Positions 1,710 to 63,536 of a stretch of DNA of 64,000 nucleotides are shown here, one piece after another. Below the pieces are notes generated by a model. The model did not search any database and was not told the DNA's origin. It saw only the letters and a program-made list of their open reading frames with translations. The DNA lies in assembly GCF_006345805.1 (NCBI RefSeq), contig NC_043006.1, positions 67,084,001-67,148,000 of the forward strand, given 5' to 3'. The translations under genes and the position numbers were made by a program. Within the stretch, counting starts at the first letter, position 1, and each line of letters opens with the position of its first letter. The stretch is from Octopus sinensis (lineage: Eukaryota).

Positions 1710-1780
<71 letters not shown>

Positions 1781-2361
1781 TACAACGAGGTTCTTTCAAT
1801 TTCCGTCTACGAAATCCACTAACAAGGCTTTGGTTGGCCCGAGGCTATAGTAGAAGACACTTGCCCATCGTGCCACGCAGTGGTACTGAACCCGGAGCCA
1901 TGTAGTTCGCAAGCATACTACTTACCGCACAGACACTGAAACACATAGGACAACATGGAGTAAAACGTCACCTGACGTTTTCTTGTGGGTGTATTGGATG
2001 ATCTTGAATTCATGAATTAAACCAAGAAATTTCTGGTAAATTTTCTGCAATTAACGTGGAAATGTATAAAAAGGTTTGTAAAAATATTGCTTGTAGTGTT
2101 CAGCAGTGTTCAGAAAACGAAGGGGAGCGTTTTGGTCATGTTAATTAAATTTTATATCATAATGAATTACGTTATTCTGATGGAGCAATATTTAATAAAT
2201 TTCTTAAAACTGCTGTAATATGTATTCATTCATTGTTTTTTTTTTTTCATTTCATTAACTAGTGCAATAAATTTTTGCATAAGAAAAAAATTACTAAATG
2301 AAAAAAGTTTTGTACTATAAAAGTTACTAAATAAAATAGGAGCTACTTCTGCCGCACTCTG
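1311..2361 (+). mobile_element. Decayed, internally deleted Tc1/mariner-superfamily element (DD41D/rosa-like C-terminus), interrupted by a SINE
   Basis: TIRs are CAGGTTGCGGCAGGAGTAAC (1311-1330) and GCTACTTCTGCCGCACTCTG+TA (2342-2363). Residual peptide at ~1955-2148 reads SPDVFLW...INVEMYKKVCKNIACSVQQCSENEGERFGHVN*, resembling WPPRSPDL..DFFLWG...G.HFEH transposase ends. Confidence 0.6.
1450..1937 (-). mobile_element. tRNA-derived SINE family A (head, CTTGGGCAAGT-type core, internal microsatellite, conserved 3' half)
   Basis: The minus strand has a box A/B-like head (GTGCGGTAAG...GGTTCAGTACC), then GGGCAAGTGTCTTCTACTATAGCC, then (TA)n(TG)n, then a tail ending GGTGCTCCAGCATGGCCACAGTC...GAAACAAGTAAAAG. 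About 12 copies occur in the window. Confidence 0.85.
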
Positions 2362-2399: not shown

Positions 2400-3397
2400 T
2401 TAACAGCAAAATCTTACACGTCTGAAAGATGAAAAGGTGGCAACTATGTGTGTAACCGATAAACCCCGTTCTGGCCGTCCGTCCGCTTCTGTGAATCCTG
2501 CCAATAAAGCAAAAGCAGATGTTCTGATTAGAGAAGACAGATGAGTTGGCAGAAAATCTCGAAGTGAGCCATGGAAGTGCTTACAACATTGTCGGATCAC
2601 TTGGCTTTTCAAAAGTGTATGCCCGTTGGGTACCGAGAGAGCTGACTACCGAATGCAAGACTGACAGGGTCATCGCCTGCACTGAACTTCTCGAACAAAG
2701 TCAAAGAGACAACACCTTCTTCCGAATGCTCGTAATGGGTGATGAAACATGGATTCATCATTATGAACTGGAATCAAAGCGGCAGTCAATGGAATGGCGC
2801 CACTTTACGTCACCATCACCGAAAAAGTTCAAGACTCAAAAGTCAGCTGGAAAAATCTCTTGGGATGCTCAAGGTGTCATTCTGTTCGATTTTTTACCAA
2901 AAAGGGAAAACAATAAAGTTTGAGGCCTACATTGAGATCCTGACGAGGCTCAGAGCAAGAATCCGACGTGTAAGACCCAACTTGCCAATTGACAGTGACA
3001 ATGCTCGACCACACACAAACATCAGGACAAGGGAGACAACATTCGGGTGGACAACATTACCGCATCGTCCATACTCACCAGATTTAGCGCCTTCAGGCTA
3101 TCATCCCTTGAGCCCCATGAAAGAGGGTTTGAGAGGTGAACATTATTCCAGTGACGAGGAAGTGAAAACTGTAGTGAAGAAGTGGCTCAAAGAACAGTCA
3201 ACAGAATTTTACGGGCAGGGATACATGCTCTAATTCGAAGGTAGAACATTGCTATTGAGAGAAACGGGGACTATGTTGAGAAGTAGAGAAGTGATCCACA
3301 GAGGACCAGCTTTATTTTGATGTATGATACATGTTCCAGTGGTGGTAATTATACCTGTCCTAAACAAAATGGCATTACTTTTTGACTCACCCTCGTA
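2400..3397 (+). mobile_element. mariner (DD34D) transposase pseudogene with 3' TIR, 5' end missing
   Basis: Motifs PRSGRP, WVPREL, MGDETWIHHY...SMEW, DNARPH and PYSPDLAPSGYH (third D changed to G), with frameshifts. Ends in TIR ATTACTTTTTGACTCACCCTCG+TA (3397). Confidence 0.92.
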
Positions 3398-4499: not shown

Positions 4500-5980
4500 T
4501 GACCACTACCACAACACCGACACTTCCATTTTTGTGTCGCCAACCACACAACAACTGCAACGGCAACTACAACAATAACATGATATCTTATACCACATTT
4601 GAGTCTACAAAGTCTTCAATAGCACCTTGATGTTTGTACCATTACCACTACTACCAAAACTACAGCGTCTACATGCTTTTATCACCACTACAACCACCAC
4701 AGCCAATACACTATGTTCTTGATGATTGTACTACCACCGTTACGATGAAAACACTAACATTTTGGTGTACCACTAACTCTACTGTCACCAGCACTACAAC
4801 GGCAACTACACCAAGGTCTTGACGTACCACTAACTGTACTATCGCCAACGCCACAACAACCATAATACTATCCTCTTGTACCAATATTATGACCAAAGTC
4901 ACTACTATCACCGGAACTGCTACAACTATAACACTAACATCGTGATGTTCTACTATCACCACTACCAAAACTAGCACAATAAGTATACCGACAATCTGGT
5001 TGATGTACCCCTACTACTACAACCTTAGCAGTAACTACTACAACCTTAGCAGTCTTGTTGTATCACTACCACTACCACTACCTCTATTAGTGCCTATACT
5101 ACAAGAAGATCTATAGTAACCTCTTGATGTACATCTACTATCGTCACCACTACTACAGTCTTATCAGTAACGTCTTGTTCTACCACTAAAATCACCACTA
5201 CCAGTACTACCGTCAAAACTACAACAATAACTATACCAGCATCTTGATTGATATACCACTATAACTACAACCTTAACTGTAACGTCTCGTACCACTACCA
5301 TAGTCACTACCTCTACTAGTGCCTAAACTACAGGAAGACCTATAGTAACATCTTGATGTGGCTCTACTGTCGTCACCGCTACTACAACTTTAACGCTAAC
5401 GTCTTGTTCTGCCACTAAAATCACCACTAACTGTACTAGAGCAAAAAACTACAACAATAACTAAACCAACATCATTTACCGCTGCTGTCATCGCCACAAC
5501 TATAGCAAGCACACTGTGGCACTCCGTCGGTTACGACGACGAGGGTTCCAGTTGATCTGATCGATAAAACAGCCTGCTCATGAAAATAATGTGCAAGTGG
5601 CTGAGCACTCCTCAGACACGTGTACCCTTAACGTAGATCTTGGGGCGATTCAGCGTGATACAGAGTATGACAACCCTTTGAAATAGAAGTACAACAGAAA
5701 CAAGAAGAGAGAGTAAGAGAAAGTTGTGGGGAAAGAGAACAGTAGGGTTCGCCATCAACCCCTACCGGAGCCTCGTGGAGCTTCAGGTGTTTTTGCTCAA
5801 TACAATCTCACAACGCTCGGTCTGAGAATCGAAACCGTGATCGAGTCCGCTGCGCTAACCACTGGTCCATTGCGCATCCATAAGAGCACACTAACGTCTT
5901 GTTGTACTTCCACCGTCACCACTACCACTACTAGCGCCTAAACTACAAGAACGACTCTAGCAACATCTTGATGTACCAGT
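4500..5980. repeat. Degenerate ACT-rich minisatellite with ~229-bp higher-order unit
   Basis: Subunits resemble AACATCTTGATGTACCACTAC. CCTCTA(T/C)TAGTGCCTA(T/A)ACTACA recurs at 5081 and 5310, and partly at ~5930. Confidence 0.7.
5518..5880 (-). mobile_element. tRNA-derived SINE family C
   Basis: Reverse complement of the 54999-55381 copy; possible TSD AGCACACT at 5508-5515 and 5885-5892. Confidence 0.85.
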
Positions 5981-8075: not shown

Positions 8076-8290
8076 GTCCTTATTACACAAAATTCTATGT
8101 GGATTGACAAACAAAATATTAAGTACTCAATACACCATATTCTGCGATTAATTATGATTCAGTCCTGTTTTTCTCTTGAATGGCGATTATATTCTATTAT
8201 TTAGGTGTTCTTCATCTGTTGAGATATGTTGACAATTTGCGTCTAAGCATGCGCAAGGTGAAATGTCAATAATTTAGGACGTCAGGCTAA

Positions 8291-9047
8291 GGTGGCGAGC
8301 TGGCAGAAACCTTAGCACGCCGGGCGAAATGCTTAGCGGTATTTCGTCTGCCGGTACCTTCTGAGTTCAAATTCTGCCGAAGTCGACTTTGCCTTTCATC
8401 CTTTCGGGATCGATAAATTAAGTACCAGTTACGCACTGGGGTCGATATAATTGACTTAATCCGTTTGTCCTCTCTGTGTTTTAGCCCTTTGTGGGTAGTA
8501 AAGAAATAGGTATTTCGTCTACCGCTACGTTCTGAGTTCAAATTCCGCCGAGGTCGACTTTTCCTTTCGTCCTTTCGGGGTCGATAAACCAAGTACCAGT
8601 TACGCTCTGAGGTCGATGTAATCGACTTAATCCCTTTGGCTGTCCTTGTTTGTTCCCTCTATGTTTAGTTCCCTGTGGGCAATAACCAAATAGGTATTTC
8701 GTCTGCCGTTACACTCTGAGTTCAAATTCCGCCGAGGTCGACTTTGCCTTTCATCCTTTCAGGTTCGATTAAGTAAGTACCAGTTACGCACTGGGGTCGA
8801 GATGATCGACTTAATCTCTTTGTCCTTGTTTGTCCCCTCTATGTTTAGTCCCCTGTGGGCAATAAAGAAATAAGAAACGTTAGCACGCCTGTATTTACGT
8901 TCTGAGTACAAATTCCGCCGAGGTCGACTTTGCCTTTCATCCTTCCAGGTTCGATGAATTAAGTACCAGTTACGTACTGGAGTCGATCTGATCGACTGCC
9001 CACCCACCCCCAAAAATGGGGCCTCGTGCCTTGAAGAGAAACGAATA
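8291..9047 (+). mobile_element. Tetrameric array of SINE family B inside one 16-bp TSD
   Basis: Single head GGCGAGCTGGCAGAAAC..., followed by four GAGTTCAAATTCCGCCGAGGTCGACTTTGCCTTTCATCC...AGTACCAG units with junctions at ~8508, ~8692 and ~8872. TSD TAGGACGTCRGGCTAA at 8275-8290 and 9048-9063. Confidence 0.9.
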
Positions 9048-9149
9048 TAGGACGTCGGGCTAATGTTTCACCGCATCCATGTACTCATGAATATACAGAT
9101 CAACAGCAAAGTTTTTATGCTCTTAACCTGGCTCCTTGTATATTTGATT

Positions 9150-12439: not shown

Positions 12440-13445
<1,006 letters not shown>

Positions 13446-14003: not shown

Positions 14004-14432
14004 CTTTTACATGTTTCAGTTTTTCACTGCGGCCATGCTGGGGCACCGCCTTTGGTCGAACAAATCCACCCAAGGACTTATTCTTTGTGAGCTTAGTACT
14101 TATTCTGTCGGTCTCTTTCTGCCGAACAGCTATGTGACGAGGACGTATACACAGCAACATCGGTTGTCCAGCGATGGTTGGGGAACACAGATACACACAT
14201 ACGTATATATATATACATATATACATATATATATATATATGTATGTATACACACACACACACATATGTATATATACGAAGGGCTTCTTTCTGTTTCCGTC
14301 ACCCAAATCCATTCACAAGGGTTTGGCCGGCCCAAGTGTATAGTAGAAGACACTTGCCCAAATTGCTATGCAGTGGGACTGAACCCGGAAACATGTCGTT
14401 GGAAAGCAAGCTTCTTAACACACAGACCTTCT
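14004..14432 (-). mobile_element. SINE family A
   Basis: Same two-part structure as 1450-1937. Confidence 0.85.
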
Positions 14433-14482
14433 ACCGCCTATATGTGTGCGTGTATGAGCGCGCGCGTGTGTGTGTATGTTTG

Positions 14483-14574: not shown

Positions 14575-16786
14575 GTTTCTTTATTGGCCACACAGGGCTG
14601 CACACACATGGGACAAGTTACAAGGTAGAGATTTTCTGTTGGGGGATGAAAAAAAAAAGAATTTAAAAAAAGGGTGGCGTAGGTTTTCGATCAAAAGGGA
14701 TCGTAAAAGGGAAAAAAGAACAAAAAAAAAGGAAAAGAAAATAAGAAAAAAGGGAAAAGGAACAAAGGAAGAGAAAAATGAAAAAAGAAGAAAAAGAGGA
14801 AAAAAGGGGGGAAGAGGAAAAGAAAACGATCAATAGGGATCGTGTATCACAGTGTCATGATGTATGGTGTAAAGGGGAAAGCAAGTAAGGTTTATCCGTG
14901 GGAAGAAAAGCCTACGAAATAGACCATCCTTGTTACATCCTTGCCATCCACGTGCCATCCTTGCTACATTCACCCATCTTTTTTTAAAACATTCGCTAGA
15001 CAAAACTTGCCTTTCTACTCTCACTTTCCTTTTCAAGTGGTACTTGAAGAAGTTGATGAGAGGGTGATCAGAGAGGAAGGTGTTTGTTTCCAATCCTTTC
15101 AGGCGCGTCCACCAGATACATTCTTTCGCCATAGCCACAAGGATGATGAAAATAGCTCTTCCTTCCCGTTTGAAGGAAGGAGGCGTGACAATATTGACGA
15201 TAGACTCAGCTACTAAACCGACTCGTCCCACACGTGACAGCAGTTGTTCGACATAAGCCCACAGGTCGGAAATTGTTGCACACTGCACGGGTACGTGCAG
15301 AACGGTTTCGTCGCTCTGACCATATCTCGGGCAGGTCGGCCCCGTGTTTCTCGAGCCGTGTCTGTAGAGCTTATCCCGAACGGGTAGCGCTTCTCGGTAC
15401 CACTGCCAGGCCAGGGATCTCTGGAAGTTGTCCATGGGCCCTGGCCCGAAAGTCGTCCCGAACAGGCGGGTCAGGTATTCCTCGTCGACGTCCAGTTTCG
15501 CCCCGAGCTCGTCGTCGTACCTCCCCTCCACTAATCCCCTATAGAATGCTTTGGTTGTGATGGAGTCACTCAAGGTTGACCCAGGACGGCAGAGTTGCTT
15601 GAGAGCAACGCGACACTCGCGGTGCCATTCGCCCTTCCTCGCCCTTTTTTTAATCCACGATTGCAGTTCGGTCATGGAGACGAGCCTCACAAACGGCGAC
15701 CACACCTGTTCACCGTCGTCTACGAAAAGCCTGAGATGTTGCAGTCTCAGCGCGTGTCTGCGCATCATCAACCACGGCATGCCCAGTCCTCCTGTTAACG
15801 GGTGTTGACAGCAAATGGATCACCTGACCATCGGGACACATCCTTTCCACAAGAAGCAAAAGAGAATGCGTTCTAGTTTGGTGATGTTAGGGTTGGGACA
15901 AGGCACGACGGTCAGGCAGTAATAGATGACGGACGCGATGTACGTGTTCGCCACCTCCGCCCGACCTTTTAGGGACAGTTTCCTTCGGCCCATTGCCGGC
16001 GAGAGAGACCACCCTACTCGTTATCTCGTTCCAGTTCTTCTCCATTTGGAGGTCCGAACCGAACCAGACCCCGAGCAACTCGACTGGACCGTCGATCCAG
16101 CGTCCCACAACGGAGGCGCTGGTGGACGGCATGGGCTTGCTTCTCCAGGTGCCTAGTCGCAAACCCACTGACTTTTCCAGGTTGATTTTTGCTCCTGTCA
16201 CCGCTTCGTAGTTTTTCAGTGTTTGCCGACCTGCTCGATGTGCTCGTGGCTAGACACTATGACGGTGACGTCGTCCGCGTATGCAGACACGCTCGTCCCG
16301 CATCCCAGTTCTCGCGGGATGCCCTTCAGAGTCGCCAGCTTCCGCAGTAGTGGCTCGAGAGTCAATACGTATAGAAGCGACGAGAGGGGGCATCCCTGAC
16401 GGACTGAACGTGCGATGTTCTAAGGTCTCGATAGATGTCCATTTACGCGAATTACCGAACGGATGCCTCTGTACAAAGCGGCTATCCAGCCGCGGAAGAC
16501 GGGACCGAAACCAGCCGCTCTGAGGACTGCCTCCAAGTATCGATGGTCTACCCTATCGAAAGTTTTCGATTGATCCAAATTGATCAGCGCCCCACCCATG
16601 CCAGGTTCGTTAACTACCCTGTCTATGATGTAGCGCATCAGGTGGAGGTTGTCATGGATGGTCCGGCCCGGCACGGCGTACGTTTGCGCCTTGTCGACCA
16701 GTTTCTCGATGACAAGCGCCAACCTCTTGGCTAACACCTTGGCCAAAATTTTCAAGTCTGCATTAAGCAGAGTGATGGTTGTTCCT
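14572..16786 (-). mobile_element. 5'-truncated L1/Tx1-clade LINE: RT domain, C-terminal Cys region and 3' UTR (frameshifted)
   Basis: ITLLNADLKILAKVLAKRL, LDQSKTFDRVDH, SVRQGCPLSSLLY, AYADDVT (16268-16285), GAKINLEKS, TCPR.GQSDETVLH...C. The 3' end AATAAAGAAACTT joins (ATCT)n. Confidence 0.92.
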
Positions 16787-17725: not shown

Positions 17726-18050
17726 GTGGATGGATGGTCATTATCACGTGACGGTATGAACTCTATTCCAACTGACAATATCTCATGAAGTCGATTTGGT
17801 GCCGATTTTTGTATTCGTTTGGTGATGTCATCAAAGGAAACCCCTAGACTATATGATCTAATGCGTCGTCAAATGTATCACTTAGAGGCATTTCGTCTGC
17901 CGTTACGTTCTGAGTTCAAATTCCGTAAAGGTTGACTTTGCCTTCCATTTTTCGAGGTCGATAAATTAAGTGCCATTTGCTTACTGGGGTCGATCTAATC
18001 GACTCATGCCGCCCTTCAAAATGGCTGCCCGTGTGACAAAATTTGAAATC
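17430..18050 (+). mobile_element. SINE family B split by two templated insertions
   Basis: Head GTTGCGAGTTGGCAGAATCGTTAGCA at 17431-17456. The body resumes at 17881 (CTTAGAGGCATTTCGTCTGCC) and ends in (ATT)n. Confidence 0.8.
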
Positions 18051-18274
18051 ATTATTATTATTATTATCATTATTAACATTATTATTGTTTTTGTTGTTGT
18101 TTTTGTTGTTGTTGTTATTATTATTGTTATCATCATCATCATTATTATTTTTATTATTGTTATTATTATTATTATCATTATTATTATTATCATTATCATT
18201 ATTATCATCATCATCATCGTCATCATCGTCATCATCGTCATCATCATCATCATCATCATCATCGTTTTACTTCT

Positions 18275-19189: not shown

Positions 19190-19700
19190 TCTTTGCACAG
19201 CTTCTAATGTTGCAGATGTACTACGGTGCCAGGTGTTCACTACTAGTGAACTGAAGTAACATCCGTTATTTTTTTAGCACCTTCGGAGTATTCGTGCGGT
19301 TCCAAGCATTGCTGTTTTCTGCAAGTGCCCCACCCTTATTGCAGCCTCTATTTGTTTCATGTACTTTTCAAAATTTTTATTCTCTGTTACCAGGGTTCCG
19401 ACAGTTATAGGTACTATTACCACCTTTTTCAGCGACCACAACTGCCTAACCTTTGCTATATTATCATGATGTCTCTTATATTCATTCTGGGCTAGTGGCG
19501 TACATTGATGCGTTATACGCCGTATGGTTTCACCATTTTGTCCACAAATTCTGCATTTATCACTCCCTGATGTGTTATCTATTCTGCATTTGATGTAATT
19601 GGTTCTTAATTCTTGCTCTTGGGCAGCAAAAATTAGAGCCTCCGTTTTCTGTTTAAATCACTTTAATAATCTATATGCATCTTTTTTCTCTGTCTGTCTT
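19190..19700 (-). mobile_element. R4/Dong-type remnant (3' end)
   Basis: ETEALIFAAQEQELRTNY and HLQKTAMLGTARILR. Its 3' UTR is shared with 20580-20695. Confidence 0.75.
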
Positions 19701-22965: not shown

Positions 22966-23047
<82 letters not shown>

Positions 23048-23049
<2 letters not shown>

Positions 23050-23200
23050 TCGCCTATCGCTACGTTCTGAGTTCAAATTCCGCCGAGGTCGACTATGCCT
23101 TTCATCCTTTCGGAGTCGATAAATTAAGTACCAGTGAAACACTGGGGTCGGTGTAATCGGCTAATCCCCACCTCCCCCAAGCTGCCCTTGTGGCAAAAAA
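23048..23200 (+). mobile_element. SINE family B (5'-truncated) in (ATT)n
   Basis: TTTCGCC...GAGTTCAAATTCCGCCGAGGTCGAC...AGTACCAG. Confidence 0.8.
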
Positions 23201-24140
23201 TTATTATTTGAAGGGATTCAAGAAACAGTTGCCTGGCTTTCTACAGCAGATCGTGCATTTGGGTTGTCTATCAGAATTAAGAACACTGAAGTTTTGTTTG
23301 ATCCAAAGACGGGCACGACATACTCAAGATAAAAATGTGATGATTGACAATAAGCCACTCAAATGGGTCAGGTCATTTAAATATGTTGGAACTGCAGTGG
23401 ATTTTAAAAGTACTTTTGATGATGAAATCAATATTAGAATATCTACAGCTGCAGTTGCTTGTGAAAAACTTTTCCATCGTTTGTGAGATGAATATAATGT
23501 AAGTTTGAAAACTATAATAAGCATATACAAATCTTGTATTTTGAGCACAATTTTTCTGTCGCAGAAGTATGGACTCCCATCAACAAACGTAAGGAAACTT
23601 GAAAACTTTCACGTGCACTATCTGCTTAATATCTGCGCAAAGTAAGATATCACTTTCTGTTTTACGCAATTATCTGTTTCAGTCATTTGATGTGGCCATG
23701 CTGGTATACCGCCTTTAGTCGAATAAATCGACCCCAGGACTTATTCTTTGTAAACCTAGTGCTTATTCTACAGGTCTCTTTCGCTGAACCGCTAAGTTAC
23801 TACGGCATAAACACACCAGCATCGGTTGTCAAGTGATGATTAGGGAACAAACACAGACAAACAATCATTTACATCTCCCCTTCTCCCTAGCTCTCCTATG
23901 TGACCCTTCTGTTCGGCATTCGGCATGATAGATCGCAAGCCACTACACGTTCTTTATTTTCTCTCCTTGTTTCTTTCTTTTTTTTCTTTTCTGTGCAAGA
24001 GCGTAGGCTCGAAACGTTAAAGACTTTGTCACTTAGTGTTATACTAATACATCTGTTTGTTGTCTACACCATCTCTCTTCGTCTTTTGTTTTTTTCTTAA
24101 TGAATTCTCCCTTTATATATACATACATAAATATATACAT

Positions 24141-24733: not shown

Positions 24734-24797
<64 letters not shown>

Positions 24798-24804
24798 TAA
24801 TAAT

Positions 24805-25005
24805 AATCCTTTCTACTAAAGGCGCAAGGCCCGAAACATTTTGTGAGAGAGGGCAAGTCGATTACATCGACCTTAGTGTTTCACTGGTACCTCATTTATC
24901 GACCCCGAAAGGATGAAAGGCAGAATTTGAACTCAGAATGTAAAGACGGGCGAAAGGCTGCTAAGTATTTCATTCAGCGTGTTAACGATTCTGCCCGTCG
25001 CCGCC
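24805..25005 (-). mobile_element. SINE family B with (ATT)n-type tail; tail stub repeated at 25098-25135
   Basis: Reverse complement of the family B body. TAATCCTTTCTACTAAAGGCGCAAGGCCCGAAACATT occurs twice. Confidence 0.8.
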
Positions 25006-25050
25006 TTGATTATGATGATGATAATAAAAAGAATAGTAATAATAATAATA

Positions 25051-25092
<42 letters not shown>

Positions 25093-25148
25093 TAATAATA
25101 ATCCTTTCTACTAAAGGCGCAAGGCCCGAAACATTATTAATAATAATA

Positions 25149-27715: not shown

Positions 27716-27973
27716 GGAAGCACTCCGTCGGTTACGACGACGAGGGTTCCGGTTGATCCCTTTGAAATACAGGTACAACAGAAACAGGAAGTAAGAGTGA
27801 GAGAAAGTTGTGGTGAAAGAGTACAGCCGGGATCACCACCATCCCTGCCGGAGCCTCGTGGAGCTTTAGGTGTTTTCGCTCAATAAACACTCACAGCGCC
27901 CGGTCTGGGAATCGAAACCGCGATCCTACGACCGCGAGTCTGCTGCCCTAACCACTGGGCCATTGCGCCTCCA
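27716..27973 (-). mobile_element. SINE family C (internally deleted) within (GATA)n
   Basis: Matches 54999-55381. Confidence 0.85.
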
Positions 27974-29769: not shown

Positions 29770-30712
29770 AGATAGAAAGGATGGTTATTAATTCAACGTG
29801 GTTGAATATTCAAAGAAAGAAAAAATGAAAAAAATCATTTGTTCTACAAGACTAAAGAATCATCAAAGCAAAAGTATTATACAATATTATACAAAATAAG
29901 ACTTTTCTCTTCCAACATAATAACAGGTTTCGCTATTGCTTTTCAAAGTTTGAGTGTTGAATACAATTCGGAGTTAGAGATTTGGTTTGCTAGGAGGGAT
30001 AATTGGTAAACAAGGTATTTTTCAGTAAAGGGGAGGTTAATCTGAAATTTTTAATATTGATTTGTATTTCAGTCTGGCTTATATCGATATTATATCCAAT
30101 ACACGTGATAAATATTTACTCGTAAATATATTTCAATCTGGCTTATATTTTTCGATAAGCGAGGTCTCTTTATTTAGTCGCACTTGTGTTGAGGTCCAAT
30201 TAGCAAACAGATATAACAGGAAGATAAGGAATTGTGGTTGAAGTTGTTCTGCACATCTGTCAATATGTTCACTGAGATATACCTGGCCATATAGTGGAGA
30301 AGATATCTGTTGCCTGTGAGCATTACATCTTCGTCTGATAGATATTCTTGTAGAACCTGTGTAGGTTTTATAGCAGCCCGAGCATCTTATTACATAAAGG
30401 AGGTTTTCAGAGGCGCAAGTGAAGTTGGATTTAATTTGAATGTTTGCCCTTCCAGAAGATTGTTCCGCAGTTAGGTCGACCACATTGTTTTACTGTTGCA
30501 TCTGTTATTCTTTAGAATAATTTAGCATTCGTGAGTATCTTAAATGTATTTGGTTGTCTACTGCTTTTAATAGTATTGTGCGTATGTAAAATAGCCTTCA
30601 GCGTCGGGTCCTTATGGAGTATTGGGAGATTTGGGGCAAAGATGTTAAATGTTTCTTTGTTTCTAGGGTTGTATGTGAATACATAAGTTAGTGTTTTTAG
30701 AGTAGGTGTCTT
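29770..30712 (-). mobile_element. Penelope-like element 3' part (GIY-YIG endonuclease, 3' UTR, degenerate hammerhead), ending at (TA)n
   Basis: TYNPRN...SSRQPN and FTCASENLLYVIRCSGCYKTYTGST...RCNAHRQQI...RLNKETSLIEKYKP. TTGAAAAGCAATAGCGAAACCTGTT lies at ~29921-29947. Confidence 0.85.
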
Positions 30713-30715
30713 ATT

Positions 30716-30960
30716 GTATTCTTTTATTCTTTTACTTGTTTCAGTCTCTTGACTGCGGCCATGCTGGAATACCGCCTTTAGTCGGGCAAATCGACCCCAG
30801 GACTTATTCTTCGTAAGCCTAGTACTTATTCTATTGGTTCCTTTGCCCCGAACCGCTATGTTAAAGGGGACGTAAGCACACCCACATCGGTTGTCAAACG
30901 ATATTGGGGAGACAAACAAGATCCACAAGCATATACAACACATACATACATATATATATA
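30716..30960 (-). mobile_element. SINE family A, 3' half
   Basis: Family A tail sequence. Confidence 0.8.
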
Positions 30961-31214
30961 TGATGGTTTCCTTGTATGTTAACACTCTCCTGTTTTTCCA
31001 ATTTCTCTCCCCGTTGTTTGCGTATTTAATTCATTTTTTCATAGTTCTTGTTGTTTCTGTGTTGATGTCTCTGTACCCATGTATATATTATATATATATA
31101 TATATTATATATATTAATATATATATATATAATATATATATATATAGATATTATACATACATATATTATTTTTATTTTATTATATCTAATGAACGCCGCA
31201 CATCCATTTCCAAT

Positions 31215-31251
<37 letters not shown>

Positions 31252-31498
31252 CATAATATATTATTACCTTATATATATTTTATCCTCATGATCACATTGT
31301 TTGAATCTGATTACTAAAAAGGAATAGAGCATGTATTGAATTCTGTCTTCTCCGTTCTTCTCGACACAAATAATATTTGAAGAAGTCATACACATAGTCA
31401 CGCATGCTCATGAACACCATACGCGCGCGCAAACCACAGCCAAAATATATGTATATATATTATATAATATATATAGAGAGAGAGAGTGATAGCGAGAT

Positions 31499-31598
31499 NN
31501 NNNNNNNNNNNNNNNNNNNNNNNNNNNNNNNNNNNNNNNNNNNNNNNNNNNNNNNNNNNNNNNNNNNNNNNNNNNNNNNNNNNNNNNNNNNNNNNNNN
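31499..31598. other. Assembly gap (100 N)
   Basis: Run of N. Confidence 1.
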
Positions 31599-31700
31599 AC
31601 ACACACACACACACACATACATACATACATACATACATACATACAACATTACATACATACATACATACATACATACATTACATACATGCATACATACATT

Positions 31701-31738
<38 letters not shown>

Positions 31739-31740
<2 letters not shown>

Positions 31741-31975
31741 GGAGTAAACACATAAATGTGAAACAAGGTGGAAAAAAAGAGTACTCAAATACCAGTGGTA
31801 GAGTAATATGATTTATTTAAAGCAGCAGAAAATTCAACAAAACCTGTTACCCTGAGTTCCCGTTGCCGTTCATCGGACAGTTTTTTCTAGCAAAAACTGT
31901 CCGATGAACGGCAACGGGAAACTCAGAGAGCAGAGTAATAGGTTTTGTTGAATTTTCTGCTGCTTTAAATAAAGT
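31739..31975. mobile_element. Miniature inverted-pLTR Penelope-type insertion with two minimal hammerhead-like motifs, in (TA)n
   Basis: Palindrome 31812-31973 centred on CTAG (31887-31890). Each arm reads CTGT-CCGATGA-ACGGCAACGG-GAA(A)CTCAG..GTA-A(C/T)AG, with a one-sided 73-bp extension. Confidence 0.7.
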
Positions 31976-32011
31976 ATATATATATATAATATATATATAT
32001 ATATAACATAT

Positions 32012-32173
32012 ATACGATGGCTTCTTTCAGTTTCCGTCTACCAAATCCACTCACAATGCTTTAGTCGGCCCGAGGCTATATTAGAAGGTAATTGACCAAT
32101 GTGCCACGAAGTGGGAGTGAACCCGGAAACATTTGGTTGGTAAGCAAGCTATTACTACAGCTACTCCTACGCC
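32012..32173 (-). mobile_element. SINE family A, 5' half
   Basis: TTTCCGTCTACCAAATCCACTCACAA...GAACCCGGAA. Confidence 0.8.
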
Positions 32174-32319
32174 TGAATAAAGTTATATTATATTGCTTAA
32201 TGCAGTATTGCATCACTTTGAAAGTTATGGACATTATTCCGCATATATGGATACACGTATGAATATACAATGTAGGCGTATATGTATGGATATATAATAT
32301 ATATATATATAGTAGGTAT

Positions 32320-32353
<34 letters not shown>

Positions 32354-32652
32354 ATATATATATATATATACCTATATTGTAACACCTATATATATATATA
32401 TACACCTATATATATATATGTTTAAGGTTTTTGTATGTATATGTGCTCGTCAAAATAGTCGGTAGAGTATACCACCCGATGAGCTAGCTGGCGTATAACA
32501 ATACAAATATACATAATGTTGCCTAATAAATTATGTAATGGACTCAATATTTGAATTCAACCACGCTGTTGAAACCCATGTAGTGTTCATTCAAACTAGA
32601 CATTCATTTCTGCTTATTATTTATACGTAATAACTATACGTATACATACATA

Positions 32653-32696
<44 letters not shown>

Positions 32697-32773
32697 TATG
32701 TGTGTGTACTGAGACAGACAGACAAAGATGAATATACTTGTGTTTGTATATATATATGTGCATATATATATAT

Positions 32774-32823
<50 letters not shown>

Positions 32824-32883
32824 ATTATATATATATATATAAATTGATCAAAATAAAAATAAAAACATGATGCGAGGATTCAG

Positions 32884-32958
32884 CGGTACATATGTTTCGG
32901 GCTTTATTAGACAGATTATAACAATGCATAATGTATGTCTGTGGCCTTCTTCAGCCGC
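32884..32958 (-). ncRNA. Minimal type-I hammerhead ribozyme (inverted copy)
   Basis: Reverse complement of 39176-39253. Confidence 0.8.
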
Positions 32959-34953
32959 GCACAACAGCTTCCACAAGGACATGTGTTACATCAAAAATTC
33001 TGGTTGGGGATGCAAATCCTCTCATTCACGTACGACATAATGCGGCAGCAGCATAGAGTTGAAGCGTCCATCTCTTTCTTCTCTCAATGTAGAATGAGGA
33101 AAATTGGATGTTGAGGTAATGTAAATAAATAAATACATATATAGAGTGAAAATGGAGGGGCGAGAGTTCGGGACGAGGGATAAAAAATGTATAAAAAGTG
33201 TAAGTATAGAATAATATAAAAAGTAGAGGATAAAGGGTTGTAAGGAGATGTAGGGGGGTATAAAGAAATATAAAGTAAAAATAGAAATAGAAATAAAAGT
33301 AAAAAAACCTGATAAAAACATGATAAAAGTGTAAAAGAATGTAAAGATAAGGGATGTATAGAGGTTATGGACCAAGCATGGTGGTCAGGAGATTGATAAA
33401 TTTAGTTGTAGAATTGTCAGTACATCAACAGTTTCGTCTGGGGACTTAATGCGTTGTAAATCAGAGCTGATGAGCATTTAATCTGGTTCCTTGAATTAAA
33501 TGGACTTCTAGTACATACATATCATCATGGATATATACATCCACATACACGCGTACATATACGCCTCCAAGCCTATAAGCATACACACGCACTCGCGTGT
33601 AAACACGTACATAAACACACACGCACCCACACGCACGCGCGTACACCACACATACATACAACAGAATATCCGCATATATACACGGACATTACGCGCGTAC
33701 ACGCTCACATGTATATACGCGCGCCCATCACTACATACACAACGTATATGCCCACGCCTCTAGGTCCAGGTATAAGATATTAAAGGATGTTATAAGAACG
33801 TATGTAAGAATCCCGTACTCATGTCAATACGCGCACGCACACACGGCTGTGGTCCGTATGTGCGTGCACATATACACTCATATACACACACACAGACACA
33901 CGCGCACTGGGTATAGCTATAAGATATCGAAGTATGCATGTACATATATGCGCGTGCATATGTATGTATGCGTATACACACGTACGCGGACGCTCGTATA
34001 TTCAAAAGGTGGATCACAGGTAAGTAAATAAACATATATAGAGGTGTAAAGCGATAAGTTAGGGGTAAGAATGAGGGTAAGGGTAGAGATTAGAAATAAA
34101 AAATACAGTATAAAATAAGAAATACAATGTAATAGTTAGAATGAAGTATAAGAATTATAAAAATATAAGAGAGTAAGGTAAGGGAAAATGAAAATGAGAT
34201 AAATGGAAGTAGAATAAAGGTAAAAATAAAATTAAAAATAAAAATAAAAATAAATGGAAGTAGGATAAAAGTAAAAATAAAAGTAAAAATAAAAATAAAA
34301 TAAAATAAGATAAAATATAATTTTGTAAAGTTTAACATGAGATGAAGGTGGTTGAAAGTTAGAGGTGTGTGTTAAACGTAGGGGCGGGCGGGTGGAACTG
34401 AAAATGGAAGGGTGGGAAGTGGAGTTTGGCGGTGTGCGTTCAACATCTGAGTTAGAAATGTGAAAGGGTATAGATATAGGGGATTAAAGAGACTACATAG
34501 GGAGGATATGGGTGTAGGAGAAGAAATATTTAGGGAAAAGAAGTCATATATGGGAGACAAAATTTGTTATATAGGGGGAAAATGCAGGGAACCCTATATG
34601 CACGTACACACACCCACACACACACACACACACGCCACATGAATATATGTATATGTACACATACGTACACGTATGTGCACATACATACGCACACACACAC
34701 CACACATACACATATACCGCACATATAGGAAAGCGGGATGTGCTGGAGCCGAAGGTGCACCGGGTGGGAGGAAATTGCATGGGGGAGTTGGTATAAGACC
34801 TAAGCATTGTAGTATTTGAAAGTATTAATAAGTTTATGTATACAGGATGGTTTGAACTCTGACCTTTTGTTAATAAGATTGTGTTTGTCTTTGAATTTCA
34901 AGATGTTAAGGAGTTCTACACAGCATAGTTGGCATCCTGCTCTATTATTTAAA

Positions 34954-37342
34954 AGAATCAGGTGGGCGGCCTACCATTCGATACCGGAGAGGAGAAAAGC
35001 AACCCCAACTCTAACCAAGAAGAAAAATAGCACACAGGAAGATATTAAAAGCAGAAGAAACCACCTCTAAATACGCACTGGAAATTTTGAAAAAGACTTA
35101 ATCGACCTCATTACCAACATCAACATTAGTAAACATAAGACCATTTCCAACACCCACTTAAGGAGCCTTAAAGATTTCCTGCTTTCACTTAGGAACCGAT
35201 AGTCTTATCATACCCGCCGACAAGACTGGGAACTGGTATAGGCTAGACTACCAAACCTACAAATCGCTCATCATGAGGGAACTTAGCAAAAAGTATAAAA
35301 CTACTTCTACGGATAACCTTAAGGAAATAACTACAAATCAAGGAAGTTATGAGCAAATTAGACCTCCTGGACAGAACAGAACCTATTAAACCACAAGTAC
35401 CCAAAATTACTATTAAAGACCATAAGAAAGACTTCCCAGATAGTGTAGGAGTACGATTAATCTGTCCGACTAAATCGGATATCGGCAGACTTAGCAAGAC
35501 CATCCTGGACAGGGTGATCCCACACATCAACCCCACATCCCACTCCAACTATGGATTAACACCAACGATGTGCTAGAATGGTTTAACACTATCACCAATA
35601 GGCACGACTACTCATTCATCCAATTCGACATAGCTAGCTACTACGCCAGTATATCCCCCATCTTACTTAACAAATCCCTTATTTTTGCCCGCAACCTTTC
35701 ACTCATAGACAGAGAAAAAATTGACATAATTCTATTAGATAGAAAACATAATAGAATTCGACGGTAGACTCTGGACCAGATCCGATACCCCCGACAATTT
35801 CAATGTGGCTATGGGCTCGAGCGATTCAGCTCAGGTGACTGACTTGGTCGGGGCCTACCTGCTCAAGAAGCTTTTCTCCGAGGTACCGGATCTTCAGGGG
35901 GGTCTATACAGAGACGACGCTCTCTCATATACCCCACCAACAATAGGAGTAAACTAGAAAGAATTAGGAAAAAGATCAGGCTTTTTTTCAAAGCTTCAAT
36001 CTTAAACTAGAATTTATGACCAATACTAAAATAGTAAACTTCTTAGATGTTACGTTAGATTTGAATAAGCACCTTCACTACCCGTATAGGAAACCAGAAG
36101 AAACTACCAAATACATCCATACCTCTTCCACCATCCACCCTGTATAATTAGCACCACGGTCCAAGCCATCTCAGACAGACTGACAAAACTATCCTCTAAT
36201 AGAGAAATTTTCAATAATCATGCACAACACTACAACCAGGCTCTCTATAGTGCCGGGTATAACCAGAGAATATCATATGTAGACCACCCGGGAGCGTTCG
36301 TCGGCCATAAGACTCCCAATTATAATCGAACTCAGCACTCAACTCACACTAGCGATAATTCTAATTTAAACTCCAAACAACGTATAGGAAATAGGCGAAC
36401 TAATAGAACAGCACACAATAGTAACCCTCCCGACGAGAGCAATATAGATCCTATTAGGAGAAATAGAAGGGATAATAGTAGATTACGCAAATATATATGG
36501 TTCAACATACCTTTCAACTTAGCAGTTAGGGGTAAGTTATGTAAGAGAATATTCTCTATAATTTCCAACAACTTCCACCCACCCACAAGTATAGAAGTAT
36601 CTTCTCCAACAAAACTATTAGGATTTCCTACTCTACCCTGCCCAACATGAGCTGCCTCATAGCTAAACATAACTATATTAATATTAGAACAGCTAGATCA
36701 AGAGCAAACCATAGCGACCAACAGAACCCCCCTCATCCAGACAGTAGACAATATAACCAGACTGGCAGCCATACTACCCAAACAGTTAGTAATAACACCC
36801 GCCAACACAACAGAGGAAATACTACACCATCAACAACCAGGAGGATACCAACGCCCCCACTCGTATTGCAACACCTCCGCCTGGGATTAGCAGCACACGA
36901 CGACAATGCAATGCAATGCAACTGCAGATGTGCATCAGAGTGCCCGCTGCAGGGCGCATGTAGGGCGAAAAACGTAATATACTCATGTGAGGTGAGTACT
37001 CAGTTTAACACACTCACCTATATTGGTTGCTCAACCTCCTGGAAATCCAGATACTACAACCACCGGTCCTCGCTGAGACACAGACCTAAGGCTAACAGCA
37101 CCTCCCTCTCTAAAAGAATTTGGGAATTAAAAGACAAATGCATAGGCTTCAAACTCAGATGGTCCATCATCGGATCAGCTGCACCTTATTTAAATAATAG
37201 AGCAGGATGCCAACTATGCTGTGTAGAACTCCTTAACATCTTGAAATTCAAAGACAAACACAATCTTATTAACAAAAGGTCAGAGTTCAAACCATCCTGT
37301 ATACATAAACTTATTAATACTTTCAAATACTACAATGCTTAG
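34954..37342 (+). pseudogene. Penelope RT-GIY-YIG polyprotein, frameshifted and 5'-truncated
   Basis: KRIRWAAY, FEKDLIDLI, PADKTGN, KDHKKDF...RLICPTKSDIGRLSK, QFDIASYYASI, MGSSDSAQVTDLVG, YRDD (35907-35918), FLDVTLDL, CNCR...CPLQGAC, NVIYSCEV...YIGC...KSRYYNH, CQLCCVE, LINKRSE...CIH. Confidence 0.95.
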
Positions 37343-40354: not shown

Positions 40355-40395
<41 letters not shown>

Positions 40396-40550
40396 TTTTT
40401 ATATATATATATACGACGGGGTTCTTGCAGTTTCCGTCTACCAAATCCACTCACAAGGCTTTGGTTGGCCCGAAGCTCTAGTAGAAAACACTTGCCCAAG
40501 GTGCCGCGCAGTGGGACTGAACCCGGAACCATGTGGTTGGTAAGCAAGCT
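40130..40550 (-). mobile_element. SINE family A
   Basis: Both halves present; tail-to-tail with the previous copy. Confidence 0.85.
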
Positions 40551-40584
40551 ATATATATATATATATAACTTTATAAGTGATGCG

Positions 40585-46865: not shown

Positions 46866-47988
46866 AAATAACTTTTTATTTTGCCACACAGGGCTAAACA
46901 CAGAATAAAAATGGACGAAATACAATGTAGAATTTTTTCTTTTCGAGGTGGGATGGGTGGGGCACAAAAAAAAACGTTTGATCAATAGGGATCTGTGGGC
47001 TGTGTGGTGTATAAAAAGGCAATATATATATATATAAGGTTCACAGTTTAGGTGTAGCCTTGGAAAGAAAAACCTACAAAAAAGACCAAGGTCACCTCAG
47101 ACAGTTCGAAAAGGAACACATGAGTAAGTCGCCTTACTTCTCGTTGTCTCTTTTGGTTACAGATTTATGCTTTAAATAGTATCGTCTTTCATACTGACCA
47201 TTTTTGCCACTTTTACCCACTTTTTATTAAAACATTCGTTCGACAAAGCCTTCGTCTCTATTCTTATCCTCCTTTTCAAGTGGTACTTGAAAAAGTTGAC
47301 GAGAGACTGACCAGAGAGGAAGGTGTTTGTTTGCAGTCCATTCAAACGCGTCCACCACACACATTCTTTCGCCATTGCCATCAGCGTAACGAAAACCGTT
47401 TCCCCTCCCGTTTAAAGGAAGGTGGTGGAACAACATTCACGATAGACTCGGCCGATAGGCGGGCCCGACCTACACGTAACAACAGCTGTTCGACGAAGGT
47501 CCACAGCTCAGAAATATCTGGACACTGCACGAGTGTGTGCAGAACGGTTTCGTCGCTCTGACCGCATCTCGGGCAGGTCGGTACGGTGATGGTTTTCGAA
47601 CCGTGCCTGTAGCTCTTCTCTCGAACAGGTAGCGCGTCTAGATAGCACTGCCAAGTCAGGGATTTCTGGAAGTTATCTATAGGCCCCCAGCCCGAACGTC
47701 GTCCTGAACAGGCGGGTTAGGAATTTCTCGTCGACGCCCAGGTTTGCCCCGAGTGTGTCGTCCGACCTCCCCTCCACTAGTCCTCTATAGAACGCTTTAG
47801 TCGTTTGTAAGCTGCACAAGTTTGACCCCGGTCGGCAGAGCTGCTGTAGAGCTTGGCGACACTCTCGATGCCAATCGCCCAGTTTCGGTCTCTTCTTGAT
47901 CCACGTTTGCAGTTCGGTCAGTGAGACGAGCTGCGGGAAAGCGCGCCTCACAAACGGCGCCCACACCTGTTCACCGTCGTCGATGAAG
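46866..47988 (-). mobile_element. L1/Tx1 LINE 3' segment (ORF2 C-terminus + 3' UTR), 3' end at (TATC)n
   Basis: DDGEQVWAPFVRR..., TKAFYRGLVEG, TCPRCGQSDETVLH and AKECVWWTR, homologous to 14830-15780. Confidence 0.9.
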
Positions 47989-48959: not shown

Positions 48960-49033
48960 GTAAGTGACCTTCCCTCTTGCCTCTTGTCTCTTCCAATGTA
49001 GTGTGTGAAACACAATTTTCGTAAACGTCAATT

Positions 49034-50516: not shown

Positions 50517-50517
<1 letters not shown>
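49034..50517 (+). pseudogene. L1/Tx1 ORF2 N-terminal part: APE endonuclease to start of RT, truncated at (GATA)n
   Basis: SVRGL, GTAVL, DPEGRLV, AVYAP, VGDWN, TW...SRSYLDRI, TDHK, GPGYWKLNTSLL, KSPRLDSLPYELY. Confidence 0.93.
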
Positions 50518-50834: not shown

Positions 50835-51676
50835 TGTTTCTTTATTGCACACACAGGGCTGAACACAGAGGGGACAAAATACAAAGTAGAGCGATTCTTT
50901 TGGGGATGAAGAGAAAAAAAGGGGATCGTGGAAAAAAAAGCCGATAATTAGGGATCGTGTGTCTCAGAAATGTCATAATGTAACAAGGGAAAGAAAAGCC
51001 TACGGAAATGACCACGGTAACCTTGGGCAATAATGTCATGTAAAAAAACATATTACAGTTAGTGACTCTCTTTTTTCCTTTCTTTTTTTGGTTCATAAGA
51101 TTATGCTCAAGCTGGCTCCGTTATTCACATCTTTTTTTGAAACATTCACTAGACAAAACTTCCCTCTTTTTCCCTCACATTCCTCTTCAAGTGATAGTTG
51201 AAGAAGTTGATGAGAGATTGACTAGAGAGGAAAGTGTTTGTCTCTAGCCCTCTCAGACGCGCCTACCATACAGATTCTTTCGCCATAGCCACAAGTATGA
51301 TGAAAATAGTTCTTCCTTCCCGTTTCAAGGAAGGAGACGCGATAATATTCACGATAGACTCGGTTGATAAACCACACACGATAGCAGTCGTTCGACGTAA
51401 GCCCACAGGTTGGAAATGGTTGGACACTACGAGTGCGTGCAGGACGGTTTCGTTGCTCTGACCGCATCTCGGGCAGGTCGGTCCTGTGTTTCTCAAGCCA
51501 TGCCTGTAGAGCTTATACGGAACAGGTAGCACTTCTTGTTAGCACAGCCAGGCAAGGGATCTCTGGAAGTTGTCCATAGGTCCCAGCCCGAAAGTCGTCT
51601 TCAACAGGCGGGTCAGGTATTCCTTGTTGACGCCCTGGTTTGCCCCGAAATCGTCGTCGTACTCCACCAATCCCCC

Positions 51677-51678
<2 letters not shown>
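50835..51678 (-). mobile_element. 5'-truncated L1/Tx1 LINE flanked on both sides by (GATA)n
   Basis: GPTCPRCGQSNETVLH...MAKESVW; the 3' end GCAATAAAGAAACAT joins ATCTAT. Confidence 0.9.
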
Positions 51679-51752
<74 letters not shown>

Positions 51753-51790
51753 CAGATAGATAGATAGATGGATAGATAGATAGATAGATG

Positions 51791-57503: not shown

Positions 57504-57714
57504 AAGGCGGCAAGTTGGAAGAAAGGTTTGCACGCCAGGCGAAATGCTTAGCGGTATTTCGTCTGCTGTTACGTTCTGAGTTCAAATTCCGCCGAGATCG
57601 ACTCTGCCTTTATCCTTTCGGGGTCGATAAATTAAGCACTAATTGCGTTCTAGGATCGATCTAATCGACTTTCCCCGTCCCCCAAAATTTCGGATATTGT
57701 GCCTACAGTAGAAA
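57504..57714 (+). mobile_element. SINE family B monomer
   Basis: GGCGAAATGCTTAGCGGTATTTCGTC...TTGTGCCTACAGTAGAAA. Confidence 0.85.
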
Positions 57715-58072
57715 ATTTAGTGGGAGGGGGTGCCAGTCGATTAGATAGATCCCCAGTACATAACTGGTACTTAGTTTATCTACCCCGAATAGATAAAAGG
57801 CAAAGCTGACCACGGCGGAATTTGAACTCAGAACGTAAAGAGAGACGAAGTACCAATTTCTTTACTACTCACAAGGGGCTAAACACAAAGAGAACAAACG
57901 GATTAAGTCGACTACATCGACCCCAGTGCGTAACTGGTACTTATTTAATCGACCCCAAAAGGATGAAAGGCAAAGTCGACCTCGGCGGAATTTGAACTCA
58001 GAACGTAACGGCAGACGAAATACTGCAAAGCATTTCGCACGTGGTGCTAACGAGTCTGTAAGCTCGCAACCA
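57715..58072 (-). mobile_element. SINE family B dimer (first unit with Tx1-type tail)
   Basis: Minus-strand junction GTAGTAAAGAAATTG|GTACTTCGTC at ~57855, equivalent to the junction at 8508. Confidence 0.85.
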
Positions 58073-58250
58073 TAAAATCGATTTGAATGTAATTATTGAA
58101 TACTTTGTATCTCTATCCTTCACCCTCTCTTTCCCTCTCCCTCTTTCTCCCTCTCTCTTTTCTCCTCCTTCCTCTTTTTCCCCTCTCCCTTTACGCTCTA
58201 AAATCTTTTTTGTTTAGTAAATAAGTAATTTCAGAGAATGGAATTTTTAA

Positions 58251-63535: not shown

Positions 63536-63536
63536 A

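What the first reader, a model, noticed from the sequence alone, without database searches (positions are those of the whole stretch)
8291..9047. SINE that carries the 3' tail of the local Tx1/L1 LINE
Seen: units 1-3 end in TTTGTCCCCTCTATGTTTAGTCCCCTGTGGGCAATAAAGAAA (8829-8870). The LINE 3' end (reverse complement of 50835-50880) is TTTGTCCCCTCTGTGTTCAGCCCTGTGTGTGCAATAAAGAAA, and the copies at 12574 and 14572 are similar. Other family-B copies (9010-9047, 24805, 57690) carry a different CCTTGTGCC...AGAAAG(ATT)n tail. Established: SINEs borrow the 3' end of their partner LINE, which is common for CR1/L2/RTE but uncommon for L1/Tx1. Inference: one SINE body has swapped tails and is mobilised by two LINE clades, one being this Tx1.
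Basis: partly seen in the sequence, partly recalled or inferred. Interest (0 to 1): 0.85.

Follow-up and report, generated by a model that had tools for sequence, protein, structure and literature searches.

The report
Octopus SINE with Tx1-like LINE tail
A very abundant short jumping element of octopus DNA has a subfamily that ends in about 43 bases copied from the end of an L1/Tx1-type retrotransposon and often stacks head-to-tail inside other copies of itself; it is likely moved by a Tx1-type enzyme, a pairing rarely reported in animals, but that step is untested.

Summary
The shared segment is real: SINE unit 3 (8829-8870) matches the LINE end (50878-50837) at 36 of 42 bases; 0 of 300 shuffles score as well. 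The LINE is of the L1 group, Tx1-like, and sits in (TATC)n arrays (5 of 5 ends). Raw reads of one public run show one fixed body-to-tail junction on about 15% of SINE bodies, so this is an amplified subfamily, not scattered stubs. But in the window the tail is internal in 4 of 4 units; the four-unit block lies between 20-base target-site duplications, ends with the other tail, and has no (TATC)n flank. In the reads about 25-30% of tails run into SINE position 15 and about 10% or more into position 48; the rest go elsewhere, and four contigs and four predicted proteins suggest real termini. Best reading: a SINE captured the LINE's end once and is likely moved by a Tx1-like enzyme with other target habits than the local family, often landing in SINE heads. 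A passenger tail inside multimers moved by another LINE stays open. No genome was available. New variant of a known kind.

The parts
8271..8290 (+). left target-site duplication
   Evidence: 18/20 identical to 9044-9063
8291..8508 (+). unit 1: full SINE with tRNA-like head (A-box-like 8301-8311, B-box-like 8363-8374), shared body, short-form LINE-like tail 8464-8506
   Evidence: the Pol III boxes are read by eye against the recalled consensus; ARAGORN and Rfam found no tRNA
8509..8692 (+). unit 2: starts at SINE position 48, body, long-form LINE-like tail 8649-8690
8693..8872 (+). unit 3: starts at SINE position 48, body, long-form LINE-like tail 8829-8870
   Evidence: 36/42 to the LINE end; laid reads
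8873..9043 (+). unit 4: starts at SINE position 15, two short deletions, body, the other (non-Tx1) tail at about 9002-9043
9044..9063 (+). right target-site duplication
58024..58073 (-). second locus: SINE head, more diverged than the unit that follows
   Evidence: 7 private differences in 50 bases against 3 in 118 for the following body, Fisher p 0.008
57855..58023 (-). second locus: body with short-form LINE-like tail (57899-57856)
57712..57854 (-). second locus: downstream unit from position 48, older-looking, its tail cut off against an inverted SINE copy
   Evidence: 10 private differences in 118
50836..51754 (-). 5'-truncated L1-group (Tx1-like) LINE: end of ORF2, 3' UTR, terminal segment 50878-50837, (TATC)n on both sides
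   Evidence: tblastn to P0001 residues 683-883; flanks
14576..16776 (-). LINE copy with RT and zf-RVT, 3' UTR and the same terminal segment, (TATC)n downstream
12578..12760 (-). short LINE 3' end in a (TATC)n array
12941..12958 (-). 18-base stub of the LINE terminus inside (TATC)n
46872..47978 (-). 3' part of a diverged LINE copy with the terminal segment
47985..50518 (+). inverted 5' part of a LINE (ORF1 zinc knuckle, endonuclease, ORF2 to residue 273 of P0001)

Best explanation
A subfamily of an abundant SINE carries the last 43 or so bases of an L1-group, Tx1-like LINE at one fixed junction, likely captured once by a template switch, and is likely copied by a Tx1-like reverse transcriptase that lands it outside the local LINE's (TATC)n targets and often at positions 15 and 48 of other SINE copies. 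Shown: the homology, the fixed junction, the high copy number, the two stacking positions, the LINE's (TATC)n flanks. Inferred: single capture by template switch; that RNAs ending in this tail are the substrate; that the enzyme is a sister Tx1-like family, or the same enzyme on an RNA that lacks the read-through repeat that would pair with (TATC)n; that arrays grow by repeated insertion into an existing copy, the head of the host serving as the 5' end of the new unit.
For: Homology 36/42, 0 of 300 shuffles. The last 68 bases are the conserved part of the LINE 3' UTR: 40 invariant columns in 68 against 24 in the 169 before, 4 copies, as expected of a recognised end. Run X21 (202,550 of 12,895,792 reads laid): tail depth about 23,800 against body peak about 162,600 (15%); no rise in depth at 8829 where LINE homology starts; 7,814 loose ends and 6,960 four-base insertions at 8820-8821 agree on one SINE-body junction. 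Tail followed by position 15: about 24-29% of tail depth; by position 48: about 8-10% from 365 joints. The remainder goes elsewhere: 4 of the 16 contig pieces listed stop at 8873 and run on 406-1375 bases; 4 of 32 predicted proteins hold an antisense translation of the whole tail (score 50 or more) next to non-SINE residues. Both head variants follow the tail (15.5% of reads have T at 8877), so there is more than one array founder. At the second locus head and last unit look older than the middle unit (7/50 and 10/118 against 3/118; p 0.008 and 0.08; four other copies show no such contrast), as nested insertion predicts. Units of the block are no closer to each other (11-14 differences in 101) than to the remote unit (9-10), and unit 1 has a different tail form from units 2-3: not a simple local duplication. 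Tx1 elements are known to target other transposons and to move SINEU elements that insert in tandem (PMC4494074, passages and one section).
Against: In the window the tail is terminal in 0 of 4 units and the one block with target-site duplications ends with the other tail. SINE loci have no (TATC)n flank (0 of 2) while the LINE ends do (5 of 5); shared target was the criterion for SINEU and Tx1-Mar and it is not met. No LINE copy was seen inserted in a SINE head. No conserved hairpin: z-scores -1.7 to +1.4 in 8 tails, 0 consensus pairs. The letters behind the tail were among 932 loose-end rows not shown, so termini were not read directly; the stacked share may be well above 40% if diverged heads break the alignments (depth 6,478 at 8877-8884; 28% of tail reads have the short-form marker that is followed by position 48 in both window cases). 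The read counts rest on one run of unrecorded library type from an unnamed relative; a second raw run (X24) gave 13 reads. The age contrast is one locus, tested after it was noticed. The four proteins come from unnamed records and may be spliced models. Type-2 heads dominate the loose ends genome-wide, yet 84% of position-15 junctions have the type-1 head, which fits family-internal multimers as well as targeting.
Confidence: 0.5

Rival explanations
1. Passenger tail: the LINE segment was captured once but now rides inside dimeric and multimeric master SINEs that are read through by Pol III and copied by the LINE that recognises the other tail.
For: 4 of 4 window units are internal; the block has one pair of target-site duplications and ends with the other tail; its four units are equally diverged; only two runs of four T in 758 bases, each in a single unit, so read-through is plausible; 84% of position-15 junctions have the subfamily's own head type; no (TATC)n flank.
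Against: More than a third of tail reads are not explained by the two junctions; contigs and proteins with non-SINE sequence behind the tail; mosaic ages at the second locus.
Confidence: 0.27
2. Template jumping: during one insertion the reverse transcriptase copies a SINE RNA, stalls at position 48 or 15 of the tRNA-like head and jumps to the 3' end of another SINE RNA that ends in the LINE-like tail, so that arrays arise in one event without any target preference. Here too the tail is a true RNA end.
For: Explains one pair of duplications around a block of mixed subfamilies, equal ages of its units, fixed truncation points, and tail-to-tail joints (8872 back to 8823 in contigs of X1 and X15). 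Template jumping by R2 and L1 enzymes is recalled; PMC10830420 mentions the term (search listing only).
Against: Does not explain an old head joined to a young body at the second locus (one locus). Arrays would need to be unusually frequent (a third or more of tails).
Confidence: 0.18
3. One reading: the local (TATC)n-targeting family itself moves the SINE, and most terminal copies lie in (TATC)n arrays elsewhere in the genome.
For: The SINE tail is as close to the 50835 end (86%) as LINE ends are to each other (82-87%).
Against: 0 of 2 loci in (TATC)n; summed depth shows that more than half of the reads at the tail end still match 8873-8876, which the LINE-type junction into (TATC)n would not (rough).
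Confidence: 0.08
4. Chance likeness or independent LINE stubs inserted at variable places in SINEs.
For: The segment is short and T-rich; an 18-base LINE stub exists at 12941.
Against: 0 of 300 shuffles; one junction in thousands of reads and in both loci.
Confidence: 0.02

Closest known systems
SINE/LINE pairs with a shared 3' end in the L1 clade: maize and sorghum ZmSINE2/ZmSINE3 with LINE1-1_ZM; Chlamydomonas SINEX-3_CR with L1-1_CR (PMC3747384, Table 1 and passages; PMC3472496, passages)
   Same: SINE ends in the conserved last 45-80 bases of an L1-group LINE
   Different: animal host; Tx1-like, microsatellite-targeting LINE; no hairpin found here whereas the plant pair has one with compensatory changes; here the tail is often internal in arrays
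Crocodilian SINEU with Tx1-Mar (PMC4494074, passages and section 16)
   Same: SINE attributed to a Tx1 partner; insertion at fixed places in another repeat; tandem stacking
   Different: SINEU has an snRNA head and poly(A), and was tied to Tx1 by shared target and shared heads, not by a shared tail; here the tail is shared and the target is not; the repeat that is hit is the SINE family itself
Microsatellite-targeting Tx1 families Kibi (TC)n, Koshi (TTC)n and crocodilian (TTCC)n/(TTTC)n families (PMC4494074, passages)
   Same: L1-group LINE found inside one microsatellite type
   Different: target here is (TATC)n; no tree with these references could be made
SINE superfamilies with one body and exchanged tails: MetaSINE, CORE, Deu/Nin (PMC4824008, passages; PMC5786205, parts 1-2 of 5; PMC4758252, passages)
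   Same: constant tRNA-like head and body, several tails, tail exchange by template switch
   Different: the partners named in the passages read are CR1, L2, RTE, Vingi; membership of this body in any of these superfamilies was not tested
Known octopus SINEs OR1 and OR2 (named in PMC4824008 and PMC4758252) and OK (recalled); 900 recently active SINE and 13 L1-Tx1 families in Octopus vulgaris (PMC13282606, part 1 of 3 and passages)
   Same: host group and abundance; the family is very probably in an existing repeat library

Membership tests
tRNA-derived SINE | short, non-coding, interspersed at high copy number | tested here: met
   seven loci with the body in 64 kb; 202,550 of 12.9 million reads in X21
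tRNA-derived SINE | tRNA-related head with Pol III A and B boxes | tested here: inconclusive
   box-like motifs by eye at 8301-8311 and 8363-8374; ARAGORN 0 genes, Rfam no tRNA match
tRNA-derived SINE | target-site duplication | tested here: met
   20 bases, 18/20, around 8291-9043; one locus
L1 group LINE | APE endonuclease, RT and C-terminal zinc domain in one ORF2; RT closest to L1 | tested here: met
   Exo_endo_phos, RVT_1, zf-RVT (below cut-off) in window pieces; all pieces colinear with P0001; P0001 hits human L1 ORF2p at 1e-50, R2 at 1e-24
Tx1 clade | RT phylogeny with named Tx1 references | not testable with these tools
   no named Tx1 sequence came back
Tx1 clade | ORF1 with CCHC knuckle rather than Transposase_22 | tested here: inconclusive
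   zf-CCHC at 21 bits, cut-off 20.8, in a partial ORF1; PMC5203782 ties such ORF1s to Tx1 in non-mammalian animals (passages)
Tx1 clade | target preference, often a microsatellite | tested here: met
   (TATC)n share 0.70-1.0 in 5 of 5 3' flanks and 0.96-1.0 in 4 of 5 5' flanks; window mean 0.027
SINE/LINE pair of the stringent type | shared 3' sequence | tested here: met
SINE/LINE pair of the stringent type | the shared sequence is the SINE's terminus | tested here: inconclusive
   0 of 4 in the window; indirect support from 4 contigs and 4 proteins
SINE/LINE pair of the stringent type | conserved stem-loop in the shared tail | tested here: not met
   no tail folds better than shuffles; 0 consensus pairs in 8 sequences
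SINE/LINE pair of the stringent type | same insertion signature as the partner LINE | tested here: not met
   SINE loci 0 of 2 in (TATC)n, LINE ends 5 of 5
SINE/LINE pair of the stringent type | trans-mobilisation shown; overlapping age | not testable with these tools
   needs a genome and an assay
MetaSINE / Deu / Nin / CORE superfamilies | central conserved domain | not tested
   domain sequences are in figures; 2 supplementary files of PMC4824008 held no match to three terms and one file could not be searched

The most novel reading that the evidence does not exclude
A Tx1-tailed SINE that homes into the heads of its own family: a Tx1-like enzyme recognises the borrowed tail and inserts new units at positions 15 and 48 of existing copies, which were themselves spread by a different LINE clade, so one SINE body runs on two engines and builds self-nested arrays at tens of thousands of sites in octopus genomes.
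Probability: 0.3. Interest if true: 0.7.

Novelty: new variant of a known kind. Interest (0 to 1): 0.5.

Why it matters
Shared SINE/LINE tails are common for CR1, L2 and RTE; the table of pairs in PMC3747384 lists L1-clade pairs only for maize, sorghum and Chlamydomonas and none for Tx1. An animal pair would indicate that Tx1-like enzymes recognise a specific 3' end, a point in the stringent-versus-relaxed question for the L1 group, and gives a natural test: same tail, different target. SINEs make up 11.6% of the Octopus vulgaris genome (PMC13282606), and nested arrays would distort family consensus sequences and age curves in such annotations. It stays a variation on known SINE biology (tail exchange, tandem stacking), and the family is probably already in a repeat library.

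Tried and rejected
No whole genome is held for the window, so the decisive flank count could not be made. Exact-pattern scans for the SINE found nothing in viral contigs, metagenome contigs or prokaryote genome contigs; a protein scan of viral contigs found no LINE relative. Run X24 gave 13 reads and was not used; contig depths of X1 and X15 are not copy numbers and were used only for joints and pieces. Shares of words were not used as evidence. ARAGORN and Rfam did not name the head (two chance hits). RNA folding gave no conserved structure. Homologue, cluster and Atlas searches returned no Tx1-named reference. The first head-versus-body age test had a misaligned row and unequal comparators and was redone. 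The top hit (P0229) is an unrelated repetitive protein and was dropped, leaving 32 proteins; of these 12 had a tail-like match, 4 whole-tail matches of score 50 or more lay next to non-SINE residues, 2 weak ones next to the SINE head, 1 next to a second tail, the rest were truncated, weak or chance; an antisense frame cannot cross (TATC)n, so this set cannot test that flank. A search of the window for the other tail outside SINE copies found only a tail duplicate at 25134-25104 and no LINE partner. Simple local tandem duplication was rejected as the sole origin of the block. Literature: nine answered full-text searches and one search showed no paper on an octopus SINE with a Tx1 tail or on a (GATA)n-targeting octopus Tx1; the library lacks most subscription papers, and Repbase, Dfam, SINEBase and the Zenodo library of PMC13282606 could not be searched, so absence from print is not established. 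Look-ups of earlier findings by sequence, words and place gave nothing; one search gave notes on other genomes only.

Full report
Setting. The window is rich in microsatellites and holds no identified host gene near the finding. Antisense translations of the SINE match predicted proteins named for Octopus bimaculoides and the LINE's closest named relative is from Argonauta hians, so the DNA is very likely from an octopus. No whole genome was held.

The observation. The 42 bases at 8829-8870 match the LINE end at 50878-50837 at 36 positions. Against the SINE-masked window the segment scores 54; 300 shuffles gave at most 33. A profile finds the segment in four SINE units at two loci and at five LINE ends, and nowhere else below E 2. 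Two forms exist: a short one in unit 1 and at 57899, and a long one in units 2 and 3.

The LINE. Window fragments carry endonuclease, RT, zf-RVT and a CCHC knuckle and all align in order to one 912-residue relative, P0001, whose best solved relatives are human L1 ORF2p (1e-50), far ahead of R2 (1e-24). The tails are therefore true 3' ends of an L1-group LINE. All five ends run into (TATC)n and four of five copies have it upstream too: the family inserts into this microsatellite, as Kibi and Koshi do for others (PMC4494074, passages). That, the knuckle (PMC5203782, passages) and the L1-Tx1 class reported in octopus (PMC13282606, PMC8967140) make 'Tx1-like' reasonable; no tree with named references could be built. 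The last 68 bases are the conserved part of the 3' UTR (40 invariant columns in 68, against 24 in 169); the SINE has about the last 43 of them. No conserved hairpin was found.

The block. 8291-9043 is one full SINE followed by three 5'-truncated units (period about 184). Units 2 and 3 start at SINE position 48, unit 4 at position 15. Units 1-3 end in the LINE-like tail, unit 4 in another tail, and a 20-base duplication closes the block. The second locus (58073-57712, minus) has the same build with two units. So in the window the tail is internal in 4 of 4 cases and neither locus touches (TATC)n. This counts against the simplest version of the finding.

Beyond the window. One laying of four public runs on 8693-8912 was possible. 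X24 gave 13 reads. In X21, raw reads of a coded organism, depth was about 162,600 over the body and 23,800 over the tail (15%); for a genome of 2.4-2.8 Gb (assumed; 2.8 Gb is the O. vulgaris assembly) that is roughly 30,000-34,000 tail-bearing copies. The body-to-tail junction is one and the same in thousands of reads, which disposes of independent stubs. About 24-29% of tail depth continues into the head from position 15, and 751 reads show the full run from there back into the body; 365 joints lead to position 48, about 8-10% after correction, possibly up to 28% since short-form tails align less well to unit 3. These are rough figures from binned depth. Something between a third and two thirds of tails lead elsewhere. 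Their letters were not displayed. Four of 16 listed contig pieces stop at 8873 and run on for 406-1375 bases (three are on the minus strand, where I read record coordinates as the record's own), and four of 32 predicted proteins show the whole tail beside non-SINE residues. More than half of the reads at the tail end still match 8873-8876, which suggests an A-rich continuation rather than the LINE-type junction into (TATC)n.

How the arrays form. Random insertion cannot put a third of the tails at two exact positions. Units of the block are as far from each other as from the remote unit and belong to different tail forms, so plain local duplication is not enough. At the second locus the head (7 private differences in 50) and the last unit (10 in 118) look older than the middle unit (3 in 118; p 0.008 and 0.08), while four other copies show no head-body contrast; this is what insertion of a young unit into an old copy at position 48 would leave, but it is one locus. 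The end of the tail resembles the head at both sites (AGAAA at position 15, GAAAT just before position 48), so pairing of the RNA end with the target may guide insertion; this is inference. Multimeric masters moved through the other tail, and template jumping in one event, explain the first block equally well.

Mechanism, most likely. Capture of the LINE end by a template switch (the route proposed for tail exchange in PMC4824008, passages), amplification by a Tx1-like enzyme, and frequent landing in SINE heads: 0.5. Passenger tail 0.27, template jumping 0.18, the local (TATC)n family as partner in the strict sense 0.08, chance 0.02 (the second and fourth overlap partly with the first). The partner of the other tail was not found; three other copies end in or sit in (ATT)n, which recalls the (TAA)n-targeting Dong/R4 elements (recalled; Dong-R4 is abundant in O. 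vulgaris).

Comparison and novelty. It works like a SINE/LINE tail pair; it fails two membership tests (stem-loop, shared insertion signature) and leaves terminus status open, so I do not file it as a stringent pair with the local family. L1-clade pairs in the table of PMC3747384 are plant and algal only; the known Tx1-driven SINEs were linked by target and head, not tail. Ten full-text searches showed no report of this pairing, but repeat databases, subscription papers and one supplement were out of reach. Verdict: a real, abundant SINE subfamily with a Tx1-like tail and a habit of nesting in its own family; new variant of a known kind; interest 0.5.

Noticed in passing
window 46872-50518: A LINE copy whose 5' part (ORF1 piece and ORF2 to residue 273 of P0001, plus strand) is inverted against its 3' part (from residue 644, minus strand), with about 1.1 kb missing and (TATC)n on both outer sides: the layout expected from twin priming, here in a Tx1-like element.
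   Followed up: partly
window 12578-12958, 14576, 46872, 50836: The L1-group LINE family targets (TATC)n/(GATA)n arrays; a search for such a Tx1 target in print gave two unrelated papers.
   Followed up: partly
window 17881-18080, 23046-23210, 24760-25140: SINE copies with the other tails end in, or sit inside, (ATT)n arrays; one has its tail duplicated (25134-25104). These tails share a short CCTTGTG-like core with the LINE-like tail.
   Followed up: partly
window 57503-58073: Two SINE loci meet tail to tail in opposite orientation, the minus-strand tail being cut off.
   Followed up: no
window 33006-39131: A long, nearly perfect inverted duplication (arms 99-100% over several stretches) around ORFs at 36090-37342 with no Pfam hit; by eye Penelope-like.
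   Followed up: no
window 19277-19657 (minus): Remnant of another LINE ORF end, weak zf-RVT match (E 0.026); its 3' end does not resemble the SINE tails.
   Followed up: partly
window 2528-3233: Broken ORFs that look by eye like a mariner transposase; no Pfam hit for the piece tested.
   Followed up: no
window 1776-1937, 14231-14433, 32019-32151, 40389-40551, 63377-63579; 5519-5842, 27843-27973, 54999-55378: Two further interspersed repeat families, probably SINEs.
   Followed up: no
contigs of runs X1 and X15 laid on window 8693-8912: Joints from 8872 back to 8823 with two letters between: the tail module itself occurs in tandem; P0247 shows the same in translation.
   Followed up: no
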